Source of the DNA: Shigella phage KRT47
Sequence record: MN781580
Strand: one strand, 5' to 3'
Length of the DNA stretch: 64,000 nucleotides
A program made the position numbers and the translations under genes. Positions 4,599 to 18,197 of the stretch are shown one piece after another (the first letter of the stretch is position 1; every line of letters starts with the position of its first letter). The notes beneath the pieces were generated by a model, which did not search any database, was not told the origin of the DNA, and saw nothing but the letters and a program-made list of their open reading frames with translations.

Positions 4599-4970
4599 TC
4601 ACTCAAATTTAATGGCTTGAAGAAGACTAATAATTCTCAAGCGACTTCTTTCATCTTTAACTGTAAAAGAAAGAGGGTCACCAGATTTCATAGTAATAGT
4701 ACATTCAAAATCAAAATCTTCTGTGACTTCTTCGAAGAAGTCAAATTCTTCAGCATAAATTAGAACATTACTCTGCATACTGTGAAGAATTTTTCCGTTA
4801 TTTCCAGACGCTGTACTAATCATCGTAACATTATGACCTTTCATATCTTCAACGATAAATTCGCTTGTAGATATTACAGCATTAATAGAACCATTCCTAT
4901 AAATAGCAGACATTAGATATTTCTTTTCTTCGCCTTCGCGAATACGATATTTCTTACCGATTTTAAACAT
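4599..4970 (-). CDS. Hypothetical protein, 123 aa
   Basis: ORF with ATG at 4968-4970 immediately after the stop of the upstream zinc-ribbon ORF. Confidence 0.5.
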   Translation of the reverse strand: MFKIGKKYRIREGEEKKYLMSAIYRNGSINAVISTSEFIVEDMKGHNVTMISTASGNNGKILHSMQSNVLIYAEEFDFFEEVTEDFDFECTITMKSGDPLSFTVKDERSRLRIISLLQAIKFE

Positions 4971-4972
4971 AA

Positions 4973-5149
4973 TCACCCTTTAAGTAAGTCGTAAAATCCG
5001 CCATTCACATGCTTAGGAGCAGAAGCCCGACGAGTAGACAAACGATGACATTTAGGGCAAACATCATTTTCTCGTTCAGAAATCTTTTTAATTTTTTCAT
5101 ATTCATGCCCGCAATCTTCGGATTGGCATTTATAATCATACATTGGCAT
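4973..5149 (-). CDS. Small zinc-ribbon protein, 58 aa (not in ORF track)
   Basis: Hand-translated MPMYDYKCQSEDCGH...CPKCHRLS with two Cys pairs; AAGGA SD before ATG at 5147-5149. Confidence 0.5.
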   Translation of the reverse strand: MPMYDYKCQSEDCGHEYEKIKKISERENDVCPKCHRLSTRRASAPKHVNGGFYDLLKG

Positions 5150-5151
5150 AA

Positions 5152-16191: not shown

Positions 16192-16382
16192 TTTGAATGC
16201 TCTATAATTAATTTTAAGGCTTCTTCACTGACAAAAATTTCGTCAGGACCTTCTATAACTTCAACCATACGAAGTTGATTAGTTAAGAGCTCACATACGA
16301 GCTCCTTGTTATAATCTTTAAATAGCTGGTCAATACGTTTCTTATGGGCTTTCTTGAGCTGACGCTTATTTAAACGAGCCAT
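16188..16382 (-). CDS. Small basic hypothetical protein, 64 aa
   Basis: ATG at 16380-16382, TAATG overlap with gene 56 stop. Confidence 0.45.
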   Translation of the reverse strand: MARLNKRQLKKAHKKRIDQLFKDYNKELVCELLTNQLRMVEVIEGPDEIFVSEEALKLIIEHSK

Positions 16383-16900
16383 TAATAACCTCGGTCTTGA
16401 CGAGCGAAGTTTTCAGCATTTTTCAGGTAATAAAGTTTAAATATTTCTTCAGCTGACATTCCAAGAGCAATAAATTTATTCATGAAAAAGTGAAATTGGT
16501 CAATCAGTTCAAATTTAATTTCAAGCTGATCTTCAGGAGATAAATCTTGAATTTTCTTGGATTGCATTTCAGAATAACGTTTCTTCCAAGGTTTCCATAC
16601 AGCAGAAGCTTCTTTTTCACCATTACTCATACCACCAAGAGAAGTATATAGCTCGCGAGTTTCATCTGCGATATAATCGTCTTGGTTTCGCAACCAAGCA
16701 AGAACTTCTCCTGCAGTTTCAAGTGAATCAGGATGACGATTTGTTTCTGGTTTATCATTAGCCAAACGAATCTGTAAATGCCGCTGCATGTCAAGCATAA
16801 CCTGCAGTGGGTCAATATTGTGCATAATATTCTCAGCATATGCACGATTTGCTTTATCAACACCTTCGATCAAATGAGCACATTCATTAAAGTAAGCCAT
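16382..16900 (-). CDS. 56: dCTPase / dCTP pyrophosphatase (MazG-like), about 172 aa
   Basis: MAYFNECAHLIEGVDKA... matches T4 gp56 N-terminus as recalled; ATG at 16898-16900 with AAAGGA SD; track ORF extends further upstream. Confidence 0.8.
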   Translation of the reverse strand: MAYFNECAHLIEGVDKANRAYAENIMHNIDPLQVMLDMQRHLQIRLANDKPETNRHPDSLETAGEVLAWLRNQDDYIADETRELYTSLGGMSNGEKEASAVWKPWKKRYSEMQSKKIQDLSPEDQLEIKFELIDQFHFFMNKFIALGMSAEEIFKLYYLKNAENFARQDRGY

Positions 16901-16934
16901 TATTTTTCCTTTCAATTCATGGGTTAGTAGATTA

Positions 16935-16958
16935 ATTATACAATAAATATATAAAGCA
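16935..16958 (-). promoter_or_regulatory. Possible MotA-dependent middle promoter for gene 56
   Basis: Minus-strand TGCTTTA (plus taaagca, 16952-16958) about 11 nt upstream of TATAAT (16935-16940). Confidence 0.3.
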
Positions 16959-16971
16959 ATAAGGAGGACAT

Positions 16972-17172
16972 ATGGTACAAAAATTAATGGCACTTGTTAA
17001 TGCCATCAAAGGTAATAAAAAGCGTATAGCTTTTACTATTTCTGCTATGGTAGGAATTTTACTCTGGAACTTTATTTTATCACCTGTTGCAATTGCACAT
17101 GGTATTAATATTCCAGTAGTTACTCTTGATACATTCGTAGATTTAGCATTTGCTTTAGTTGGGTTAATTTAA
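16972..17172 (+). CDS. Small hydrophobic protein, 66 aa, on the plus strand
   Basis: AAGGAGG SD 4 nt before ATG at 16972; hydrophobic segments; stop overlaps gene 61 stop (convergent). Confidence 0.5.
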   Translation: MVQKLMALVNAIKGNKKRIAFTISAMVGILLWNFILSPVAIAHGINIPVVTLDTFVDLAFALVGLI

Positions 17173-18197
17173 ATCTTAGCATATTTAGATAGCCGCATTT
17201 TAGCCATCAACCCCTGGGCAATATTATTTTTCATATATTCCATAATTTGTTCAGGGGTTGCACCTTCCTTTCTAATCATATCATTAACATCTTTTGATTT
17301 CCAGGGAGATTTATCCCAAAACATAACCCTTTCTCCTGCATCAACTAATTTAGTCATTCGCTTAATAGTGTCAGGATGACGAGGTTCATTATCTAAAACC
17401 CACACACGTCTATCTTTAAATGGAACAACTTCTAGGTCTAATTGACCACCCGTAATAGCTATACCATTTTCAATAAAAAGTGAATCTATAGGTCCTTCTA
17501 GAACATATACATCACCATCTTTAACTCGTTCGACTCCATAGATTTTTGTTGCTTCAGGATAAGCTTTGATGGTGATATATTTTTGGGGAGCATCTTTCTT
17601 TAATGCACGTCCTTGAAAAGACTCAGCTTTTCCATTAGCATTATAAATTGGAATAACAAGACGAGGCTCAGGTATTTCCTTTTTATATGTTCCCGGTGCT
17701 ATGCTATTAACTAATTTAGGCCATTCAGTTGTAAACCAAAGATATTTCCATTTATCCTTTGGAATACAACGAGCTTTTACATATTTTATAATTGCATGGT
17801 CTTCCGCCAGTTTATCTAATCGAACACATGACGGAAGAGATTTAATTATTTTCTTCTCAGGTTGTTTAGGAAGTTCTTTAGGTTTTTCTACTGGACGACT
17901 TTTACCTTTTTCTTTTCTTATTTCAAAGATATACTCACGATATAAATCAGGTTCAAACTCCTTTAAATATATTCCGATTGGTGCATGATAGTTACAGTTA
18001 TAACAATGAATATTTCCTTCATTATTATCACCATAATACCATCCACGAGCTTTATTCTGGTCGGTTTTTGAATCTCCACAAACAGGACATCTAAACCGTA
18101 ATTTAAAAGTTGAACTATTATTTACTTGTGTGAATTTAGGTAAATGAGCTAATGCACGGTATGCAAACTCATTATCAATCCAAGGTATTGATGACAT
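17169..18197 (-). CDS. 61: DNA primase, 342 aa
   Basis: N-terminal zinc-binding CPVCGD...CYNC and TOPRIM-like core; size matches T4 gp61. Confidence 0.9.
   Translation of the reverse strand: MSSIPWIDNEFAYRALAHLPKFTQVNNSSTFKLRFRCPVCGDSKTDQNKARGWYYGDNNEGNIHCYNCNYHAPIGIYLKEFEPDLYREYIFEIRKEKGKSRPVEKPKELPKQPEKKIIKSLPSCVRLDKLAEDHAIIKYVKARCIPKDKWKYLWFTTEWPKLVNSIAPGTYKKEIPEPRLVIPIYNANGKAESFQGRALKKDAPQKYITIKAYPEATKIYGVERVKDGDVYVLEGPIDSLFIENGIAITGGQLDLEVVPFKDRRVWVLDNEPRHPDTIKRMTKLVDAGERVMFWDKSPWKSKDVNDMIRKEGATPEQIMEYMKNNIAQGLMAKMRLSKYAKI

What the first reader, a model, noticed from the sequence alone, without database searches (positions are those of the whole stretch)
16972..17172. Only plus-strand gene in the window: a small hydrophobic ORF convergent with primase gene 61
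A 66-aa ORF with a near-perfect Shine-Dalgarno (AAGGAGG, 4-nt spacer) is encoded opposite to every other gene, between the gene 56 start and the gene 61 stop, with stop codons overlapping. Rightward transcription here would be antisense to the primase mRNA. The product has two hydrophobic segments, so it could be a membrane peptide or the site could act through antisense transcription.
Basis: seen in the sequence. Interest (0 to 1): 0.45.

Follow-up and report, generated by a model that had tools for sequence, protein, structure and literature searches.

The report
Conserved small late membrane-protein gene (dam.1)
The small rightward ORF between the dCTPase and primase genes of this T4-like phage is a real, conserved gene for a 66-residue membrane protein, probably made late in infection; it is already catalogued as a hypothetical protein ("dam.1" in phage T4T) and its function is unknown.

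Summary
ORF 16972-17172 (+) encodes 66 aa. It has an AAGGAGG Shine-Dalgarno 4 nt upstream, and its stop codon shares the tetranucleotide TTAA with the primase (gene 61) stop.

It is a real gene. The protein is conserved at the same position and orientation in at least eight T4-like genera. Substitutions show a coding pattern: synonymous sites are saturated, pN is about 0.3, and the other five frames are closed. It evolves about as slowly as the primase.

Every lineage has a T4 late-promoter-like octamer (NATAAATA; here AATAAATA, 16942-16949) 15-22 nt before the ATG. That heptamer is otherwise about fourfold depleted in the window.

The predicted product has a basic N-terminal amphipathic helix, one long transmembrane helix with an invariant W-N...P...G...P motif, and a short acidic amphipathic C-terminal helix.

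It belongs to PHROG 2024 and pVOG 1982, is named "dam.1" in the T4T record, and is unannotated in the T4 reference. I found no family with a known function and no paper on it.

The antisense relation to the primase mRNA follows from the sequence. It is not needed to explain the conservation and cannot be tested here. Verdict: an ordinary, already catalogued, uncharacterised small phage gene of modest interest.

The parts
16942..16949 (+). T4 late-promoter-like octamer AATAAATA (consensus TATAAATA at -13 to -6). The inferred transcription start is about 16955, giving a leader of about 17 nt.
   Evidence: Sequence. ATAAATA occurs only 11 times on both strands of the window, against 41.5 +/- 5.8 expected. 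An equivalent octamer lies 15-22 nt before the ATG in all 15 first-in-operon copies from 8 genera, and is absent before the tandem second copy. A(-13) is the commonest variant among T4 late promoters (PMC2988020; PMC1524935). The phage Lutter record annotates the same 8 bp as a promoter. Activity has not been tested.
16961..16967 (+). Shine-Dalgarno AAGGAGG, 4 nt before the ATG.
   Evidence: it is unique in the window. A strong SD is conserved in all lineages with a 4-6 nt spacer.
16972..17172 (+). CDS of 66 aa, a dam.1 / PHROG 2024 / pVOG 1982 small membrane protein: MVQKLMALVNAIKGNKKRIAFTISAMVGILLWNFILSPVAIAHGINIPVVTLDTFVDLAFALVGLI
16975..17009 (-). Intrinsic-terminator-like hairpin (stem-loop 17009-16984, then a T-run to about 16975). 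It is the predicted 3' end of the gene 61 (primase) transcript and lies inside codons 2-13 of the plus-strand ORF.
   Evidence: Terminator scan. Fold energy -12.7 kcal/mol, z = -2.7. The same site is annotated as a terminator in the fPS-90 record. It is conserved in T4 but not clearly outside Tequatrovirus.
16935..16961 (-). Middle-promoter-like site for gene 56 on the minus strand. The MotA box ATTGCTTTA (reverse complement of 16952-16960; TGCTTTA itself is 16952-16958) is followed by 11 nt and then TATAAT (reverse complement of 16935-16940). The plus-strand late octamer sits inside its spacer.
   Evidence: Read from the sequence. The fPS-90 record annotates the homologous 23 bp as a predicted middle promoter. 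The match to the MotA-box consensus is from my own knowledge of T4 middle promoters.
17169..18197 (-). Gene 61 (DNA primase), convergent with the ORF. Its stop overlaps the ORF stop.
   Evidence: The product is 99% identical to T4 gp61.
16382..16900 (-). Gene 56 (dCTPase), divergent from the ORF.
   Evidence: The product is 69% identical to T4 gp56.

Best explanation
The ORF is a real protein-coding gene. It is the orthologue of the ORF called dam.1 in the T4T genome record, and a member of PHROG 2024.

Most likely mechanism:
1. Late in infection, the phage late transcription apparatus (gp55-gp33-gp45 with host RNA polymerase) starts at the AATAAATA octamer, at about position 16955.
2. The short leader carries a very strong Shine-Dalgarno, and the 66-residue product is translated.
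3. The product inserts into the inner membrane. The basic N-terminal amphipathic helix (residues 2-12, followed by KGNKKR) stays in the cytoplasm. One transmembrane helix spans residues about 19-42. The conserved loop and the acidic amphipathic C-terminal helix (52-62) lie at the periplasmic face.
4. It then acts at the cell envelope as an accessory factor. Its role is unknown.

Shown here: the ORF, the SD and the stop overlap; protein-level purifying selection; conserved position and orientation; a conserved promoter-like motif; predicted helices.

Inferred: late timing, membrane topology, and any envelope function.

Because there is no plus-strand terminator, the late transcript probably also runs antisense into gene 61. 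I treat that as a by-product.
For: Conservation:
- The protein is >90% identical across Tequatrovirus, including T4 itself. It is about 55% identical in Mosigvirus and about 50% in Gaprivervirus, with the same length of 65-66 aa.
- A paralogous type, about 20% identical but sharing W-N...P...G...P, occupies the same slot in Dhakavirus, Marfavirus, Kanagawavirus and Gelderlandvirus. It sits in tandem with the first type in Gaprivervirus.

Coding signature:
- Window versus Mosigvirus gives pS 0.77 and pN 0.31. Differences by codon position are 28:13:41.
- Close pairs give dN/dS of 0.12-0.29.
- The other five frames carry 1-8 stops.
- Divergence is comparable to the primase: 56% versus 73% against Mosigvirus, and type B 76% versus 68% between WG01 and Marfa.

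Promoter:
- An NATAAATA octamer lies 15-22 nt upstream in every lineage, whatever gene lies to the left (dam, 56, a homing endonuclease or a hypothetical gene).
- The heptamer is depleted about fourfold in the window.
- The literature accepts A at -13 and late transcripts of either polarity.

Structure and topology:
- The AlphaFold model has mean pLDDT 79.9, with helices at 2-12, 16-42 and 52-62.
- Net charge is +5 before the transmembrane helix and -2 after it. GRAVY is 1.25.

Annotation: the ORF is annotated as a CDS in most relatives and named dam.1 in T4T.
Against: - There are no expression data of any kind. I found no paper on this ORF.
- The T4 reference annotation omits it.
- The promoter octamer is a 7-of-8 match in an AT-rich genome, and here it lies inside the spacer of a minus-strand promoter.
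- The C-terminal hydrophobic stretch could instead be a second membrane-embedded segment, which would change the topology.
- No functional homologue was found in Pfam, NCBIfam, PADLOC, PDB or BFVD, so the biological role is a guess.
Confidence: 0.72

Rival explanations
1. The main function is RNA-level. Rightward late transcription through the locus acts as antisense to the primase mRNA, or the primase 3' UTR acts as antisense to the small ORF's mRNA. Either would time primase shut-off or restrain a possibly toxic membrane peptide, in the manner of a type I toxin-antitoxin pair.
For: - The genes are convergent with overlapping stops in 6 of the 8 genera sampled.
- The predicted gene 61 terminator lies at codons 2-13 of the ORF, so the 3' UTR would be complementary to almost the whole ORF but not to its SD.
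- No plus-strand terminator-like site lies within the scanned stretch to 18300. A looser scan finds only a weak 5-bp hairpin 81 nt past the stop.
- Both T4 strands are known to be transcribed at some sites at different times (PMC2988020).
Against: - Amino-acid conservation with saturated synonymous sites shows that the protein itself is selected.
- In phage DK-13 a homing endonuclease separates the ORF from gene 61, and the ORF is intact.
- In CGG4-1 there is no overlap.
- The gene 61 terminator hairpin is not clearly conserved outside Tequatrovirus.
- There is no evidence of toxicity.
Confidence: 0.12
2. It is a lysis protein, either a holin, pinholin or antiholin-like regulator. One family member is labelled 'Holin' in UniRef.
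For: - It is a small membrane protein with predicted late expression.
- Member A0A482MZV5 carries the UniRef name 'Holin'.
- Acidic residues are conserved in the C-terminal hydrophobic helix.
Against: - There is no charged hydrophilic C-terminal tail. The protein ends ...ALVGLI, with no basic residue after R18.
- It is not next to an endolysin or a lysis cassette. Its neighbours are genes 56 and 61.
- T4-like phages already have the holin T, the antiholins RI and RIII, and spanins elsewhere (my own knowledge).
- No holin family matched in Pfam or NCBIfam.
- All other database names are 'hypothetical protein'.
Confidence: 0.08
3. The ORF is a chance open frame in the gene 61 3' UTR and gene 56 promoter region. 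On this view its sequence conservation reflects those minus-strand signals.
For: - The region does carry a minus-strand terminator and a minus-strand promoter.
- 26 plus-strand ORFs of 66 aa or more occur by chance elsewhere in the window.
- The T4 reference leaves the region unannotated.
Against: - The frame stays open at 65-66 codons down to about 50% identity and in a 20%-identical paralogue.
- Third codon positions change most and second positions least.
- The SD and ATG are conserved everywhere.
- The terminator covers only 35 of the 201 nt.
Confidence: 0.03
4. The first 42 residues act as a cleavable signal peptide. Leader peptidase would cut after the conserved small-x-small motif (AIA|HG here) and release a 24-residue amphipathic acidic peptide into the periplasm.
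For: - There is a basic n-region and a hydrophobic core.
- Pro lies 5 residues before the putative cut.
- Small residues occupy -3 and -1 in both paralogue types: AIA, LVA, ALA, AAT and AAS (alignments).
Against: - The hydrophobic core is about 24 residues long, which is typical of an uncleaved signal anchor.
- The N-terminal helix (L..L[VI].AIKG) is itself well conserved within type A, which would not be expected for a disposable leader.
- No signal-peptide predictor was available, so this rests on inspection only.
Confidence: 0.05

Closest known systems
dam.1 of phage T4T (HM137666.1, ADJ39749.1); PHROG 2024; pVOG VOG1982; 'hypothetical protein' in several hundred Tevenvirinae records
   Same: It is the same protein. 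The T4 reference locus (L003) encodes a 97% identical protein, and the T4T dam.1 ORF occupies the same slot. PHROG 2024 matches over the full length with E = 1.4e-31. Strand, SD and the 4-nt stop overlap with gene 61 are all the same.
   Different: In T4 and T4T the left neighbour is dam. In this phage dam and segF are absent from the window, and the left neighbour is gene 56. No function is attached to any member.
T4 late genes that sit inside early regions, such as soc
   Same: Both are driven by a TATAAATA-type octamer a short distance before the start codon. In this window soc has TATAAATA at 16003-15996 on the minus strand, about 30 nt before its ATG.
   Different: soc is on the minus strand and encodes a capsid decoration protein. 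This gene is on the plus strand, its octamer has A at -13, and its product is predicted to be membrane-embedded. Late timing is documented for soc and only inferred here.
Small T4 envelope proteins (Imm, RI, Spackle) and holins or pinholins
   Same: They are short phage-encoded proteins that act at the inner membrane or periplasm. All have one or two hydrophobic helices.
   Different: There is no sequence or profile similarity. The charged C-terminal tail typical of holins is absent. The genomic context is different.
Type I toxin-antitoxin loci (hok/sok, tisB/istR-1)
   Same: A small hydrophobic ORF has its mRNA overlapped by a convergent antisense transcript.
   Different: The antisense partner would be the 3' UTR of an essential mRNA rather than a dedicated small RNA. 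It would not cover the SD. Toxicity is not shown. The arrangement is lost in DK-13 and CGG4-1.

Membership tests
PHROG 2024 / dam.1 family | Full-length sequence match to the family profile | tested here: met
   hmmscan gives E = 1.4e-31, with residues 2-66 matching profile positions 1-65 of 65. The exact protein is already in NCBI (for example ACP30675.1) as a hypothetical protein.
PHROG 2024 / dam.1 family | Conserved position: plus strand, abutting the 3' end of the primase gene | tested here: met
   The arrangement is the same in T4, T4T, fPS-90, Lutter, Mosigvirus, Gaprivervirus, Dhakavirus, Marfavirus, Kanagawavirus and Gelderlandvirus.
T4 late genes | TATAAATA-type octamer at -13 to -6, a short distance upstream of the gene | tested here: met
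   AATAAATA lies at 16942-16949, 22 nt before the ATG. It is conserved in 8 genera. The motif is depleted elsewhere in the window. The A(-13) variant is accepted in the literature.
T4 late genes | Transcription that depends on gp55, gp33 and gp45 and begins after DNA replication starts | not testable with these tools
   This needs RNA data from wild-type and gene 55 mutant infections.
Holins / pinholins | At least one transmembrane domain | tested here: met
   Helix 16-42 in the model. Mean hydropathy over residues 19-42 is 2.0.
Holins / pinholins | Hydrophilic, highly charged C-terminal cytoplasmic tail | tested here: not met
   The C-terminus is ...DLAFALVGLI. Net charge of residues 43-66 is -2, with no basic residue.
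Holins / pinholins | Location in a lysis cassette next to an endolysin or spanin | tested here: not met
   The neighbours are dCTPase and primase.
Holins / pinholins | Membrane hole formation or lethality on expression | not testable with these tools
   This is an experimental test.
Type I toxin-antitoxin | Small hydrophobic toxin ORF overlapped by a cis-antisense RNA | tested here: inconclusive
   The predicted gene 61 3' UTR overlaps codons 2-66. It is an mRNA tail rather than a dedicated sRNA. The overlap is not universal.
Type I toxin-antitoxin | Toxicity of the peptide and repression by the antisense RNA | not testable with these tools
   This is an experimental test.
Sec signal peptide (cleaved) | n-h-c regions with small residues at -3 and -1 | tested here: inconclusive
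   The motif P-x-A-x-A|HG is conserved. The h-region is about 24 residues and the n-region is conserved. No predictor was available.

The most novel reading that the evidence does not exclude
The primase mRNA 3' UTR and the late mRNA of the small membrane protein form a conserved cis-antisense pair. This pair would work as a temporal switch. Middle-period primase transcripts would hold back a potentially harmful membrane peptide until late, or late rightward transcription would trigger double-stranded RNA cleavage that shuts off primase synthesis. The back-to-back overlapping middle (minus) and late (plus) promoters at 16935-16961 would give mutually exclusive use of the same DNA.
Probability: 0.1. 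Interest if true: 0.55.

Novelty: already known. Interest (0 to 1): 0.3.

Why it matters
T4 is one of the best-studied genomes, yet its reference record (NC_000866 / AF158101) leaves this 309-bp dam-61 gap empty. The ORF in it is as conserved as the primase across the enterobacterial T-even relatives sampled here, and it carries the hallmarks of a late gene. Screens built on the reference gene list would therefore be expected to miss it.

If the protein proves to act in lysis timing, superinfection exclusion or envelope remodelling, it would add a component to pathways that are thought to be fully catalogued. As it stands it is one more conserved hypothetical small membrane protein, already present in databases.

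Tried and rejected
- Function by homology gave nothing. Pfam had no hit, NCBIfam none and PADLOC none. A PDB profile search gave only noise at E >= 0.48. BFVD fold search returned only family members.
- HMMER against 1.84 billion representatives returned only short relatives of the same family, plus three long repetitive proteins that are compositional artefacts.
- The Rfam scan of 16600-17500 gave only sub-threshold noise.
- The IMG/VR scan added 8 loci of the same three genera.
- Nine literature searches found nothing on this ORF. They covered T4 ribosome profiling, small proteins, TSS mapping, antisense and late transcripts, and 'dam.1'. The T4 genome review PMC150520 is not held.
- I looked for a plus-strand terminator after the ORF. 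The consensus scan found none up to 18300. A looser scan to 400 nt past the stop found only a weak 5-bp hairpin inside gene 61.
- I checked whether the minus-strand terminator is conserved outside Tequatrovirus. It is not clearly so.
- I rejected the UniRef label 'Holin' as evidence. It applies to a single auto-named entry, and two defining holin features are not met.
- I considered whether the ATAAATA motif is conserved only because it lies in a minus-strand promoter spacer. I rejected this because its distance to the plus-strand ATG is constant while the left-hand neighbour gene differs between lineages.

Full report
**What the window is**

The window is from a T4-like phage of the genus Tequatrovirus. 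The stretch 16300-17900 is 98-99% identical to phages SCS4, SHBML-50-1, MLF4 and RB18. Another stretch is 100% identical to phage teqhad. Minus-strand ORFs cover 91% of the window, as expected for the early and middle region of a T-even genome.

**Checking the observation**

- The ORF runs from the ATG at 16972 to the TAA at 17170-17172 and has 66 codons.
- AAGGAGG lies at 16961-16967, followed by the 4-nt spacer ACAT. It is the only AAGGAGG on either strand of the 64 kb.
- Gene 61 (primase, 17169-18197, minus) ends at 17169-17171. The two stops share the tetranucleotide TTAA.
- Gene 56 (dCTPase) begins at the ATG at 16900, not at the upstream GTG listed mechanically.
- No other plus-strand ORF combines a gap in minus-strand coding with a Shine-Dalgarno.
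- ORF length alone means little, because 26 plus-strand ORFs of 66 aa or more occur in the window.

Its significance rests on comparison with other phages.

**It is a real gene**

tblastn finds the protein in 692 phage records:
- It is >90% identical throughout Tequatrovirus, including T4 itself.
- It is about 55% identical in Mosigvirus and about 50% in Gaprivervirus.
- The length is always 65-66 aa, on the same strand, between gene 56 (or inserted genes) and gene 61.

A second paralogous type is about 20% identical and shares the invariant W32, N33, P38, G44 and P48. It fills the same slot in Dhakavirus, Marfavirus, Kanagawavirus and Gelderlandvirus. In Gaprivervirus UPEC01 it lies in tandem directly after the first type.

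The nucleotide changes show a coding pattern:

| Comparison | Result |
|---|---|
| Window vs Mosigvirus | pS 0.77 (saturated), pN 0.31 |
| Differences by codon position | 28 : 13 : 41 |
| Close pairs | dN/dS 0.12-0.29 |
| Other five frames | 1-8 stops each |

The protein diverges about as slowly as the essential primase next to it. Against Mosigvirus it is 56% identical and the primase 73%. For type B between WG01 and Marfa it is 76% and the primase 68%. A chance ORF in a 3' UTR is therefore excluded.

**How it is probably expressed**

Every first-in-operon copy I examined (15 loci, 8 genera) has a T4 late-promoter-like octamer 15-22 nt upstream of the ATG.

| Phage or lineage | Octamer |
|---|---|
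| This window, fPS-90, Mosigvirus, WG01 | AATAAATA |
| T4, Lutter | GATAAATA |
| Gaprivervirus, PEi20 | CATAAATA |
| Marfa, Q7622 | TATAAATA |
| CGG4-1 | ATTAAATA |

- The tandem second copy in UPEC01 has no octamer, as expected for a co-transcribed gene.
- The gene to the left differs between lineages: dam, gene 56, a homing endonuclease or a hypothetical gene. The motif therefore travels with the plus-strand ORF.
- In this window ATAAATA is strongly avoided. There are 11 occurrences on both strands against 41.5 +/- 5.8 expected. One of the few others is the soc late promoter at 16003-15996.
- The literature gives the consensus TATAAATA at -13 to -6. A at -13 is the commonest variant, found at nine of 50 T4 sites, and T(-13) is poorly conserved in relatives. 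Late transcripts can have either polarity (PMC2988020; PMC1524935).
- The authors of the phage Lutter record annotated the same 8 bp as a plus-strand promoter.

I therefore infer a late transcript starting near 16955 with a 17-nt leader. This is an inference, because no RNA data were available.

**What else lies in the same DNA**

On the minus strand the 71-nt divergent spacer holds a middle-promoter-like site for gene 56. It consists of the MotA box ATTGCTTTA, 11 nt, and then TATAAT, spanning 16935-16961. The fPS-90 record annotates the homologous site. The plus-strand late octamer sits exactly in its 11-nt spacer.

The gene 61 transcript is predicted to end at an 11-bp hairpin followed by a T-run (17009-16975). 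Its fold energy is -12.7 kcal/mol with z = -2.7. The fPS-90 record also annotates this site as a terminator.

So about 190 nt of the primase 3' UTR would be antisense to codons 2-66 of the small ORF. No plus-strand terminator-like site follows the ORF within the scanned stretch to 18300. A looser scan found only a weak 5-bp hairpin. The late RNA would therefore run antisense into gene 61.

However, the arrangement is not universal. DK-13 has a homing endonuclease between the two genes, CGG4-1 has no overlap, and the hairpin is not clearly conserved outside Tequatrovirus.

**The product**

AlphaFold with a 32-sequence family alignment gives mean pLDDT 79.9 and three helices, at 2-12, 16-42 and 52-62.
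- Residues 1-18 carry a net charge of +5 (K4, K13, K16, K17, R18).
- Residues 19-42 form a 24-residue hydrophobic helix.
- The loop HGINIPVVT contains the invariant G and P.
- The last helix is amphipathic, with D53 and D57 on one face. The net charge after the transmembrane helix is -2.

By the positive-inside rule the likeliest topology is N-terminus in the cytoplasm and C-terminus in the periplasm. A helical hairpin, or cleavage after the conserved small-x-small motif (AIA|HG), cannot be excluded.

**Comparison with known families**

- The protein matches PHROG 2024 (unknown function) over its full length, with E = 1.4e-31.
- It is pVOG VOG1982 in teqhad.
- It is named dam.1 only in the T4T record HM137666.1.
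- The T4 reference records NC_000866.4 and AF158101.6, and several other T4 records, leave the 309-bp dam-61 gap unannotated. The exact sequence encoded by the T4 reference is not among NCBI proteins in the collection.
- Pfam, NCBIfam, PADLOC, PDB, BFVD and a scan of 1.84 billion representatives give no link to a characterised family.
- The single UniRef label 'Holin' is not supported. The protein has no charged C-terminal tail and is not in a lysis cassette.
- No paper in the library mentions dam.1 or this ORF.

**Verdict**

The finding is a real, strongly conserved, very probably late-expressed small inner-membrane protein gene of unknown function. It is already catalogued as a hypothetical protein in hundreds of T-even genomes but is missing from the T4 reference annotation. 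The membrane-peptide reading is supported. The antisense reading is geometrically valid but secondary and untested.

Interest is modest at 0.3. The main value is as a pointer to a neglected conserved gene in a model phage.

Noticed in passing
window, whole 64 kb, both strands: The late-promoter core ATAAATA is about fourfold under-represented. There are 11 occurrences against 41.5 +/- 5.8 expected from dinucleotide shuffles. TATAAATA occurs 5 times against 10.5 expected. This suggests selection against stray late promoters in the early region.
   Followed up: partly
window 16935-16961: A minus-strand middle-promoter-like site (MotA box plus TATAAT) and the plus-strand late octamer overlap back to back. 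The late octamer fills the 11-nt spacer of the middle promoter.
   Followed up: partly
window 16382-16900 versus 17169-18197: There is a mosaic junction at this locus. gp61 is 99% identical to T4 gp61, but gp56 is only 69% identical to T4 gp56. T4's dam and segF are absent from the whole window. The left neighbour of the small ORF varies widely between relatives (dam, a homing endonuclease or hypothetical genes).
   Followed up: partly
L008 (Escherichia phage UPEC01) 1495-1692 and 1701-1901: Gapriverviruses carry two tandem paralogues of the small membrane protein. Only the first has a late-promoter-like octamer. Other genera keep one type or the other.
   Followed up: partly
public records of relatives (L008, L020; hits H100/H146, H111, H116): Type-B homologues carry clearly wrong product names in some records: 'DNA packaging ATPase', 'dCTP pyrophosphatase' and 'thymidylate synthase'. 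In PEi20 and in several T4 records the ORF is not annotated at all.
   Followed up: no
window 4898-4905 (+): This is the only perfect TATAAATA on the plus strand of the window. It lies inside a minus-strand gene, about 70 nt before the minus-strand coverage gap at 4971-5151. In teqhad that stretch is a 58-aa zinc-ribbon CDS on the minus strand, which fell below my 60-aa cut-off. No plus-strand ORF with an SD follows it.
   Followed up: partly
window 55544 (+): This is the only other plus-strand ORF with an SD-like sequence (GAAGGAGACTAATG). It has 37 codons and does not lie in any gap in minus-strand ORF coverage. I did not examine it further.
   Followed up: no
window 16961-16967: AAGGAGG occurs once in 128 kb of both strands. 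None of the minus-strand (early and middle) genes in the window uses this full SD. GGAG in early-gene SDs is the RegB cleavage target, and late transcripts are reported to be resistant (PMC3014915).
   Followed up: no
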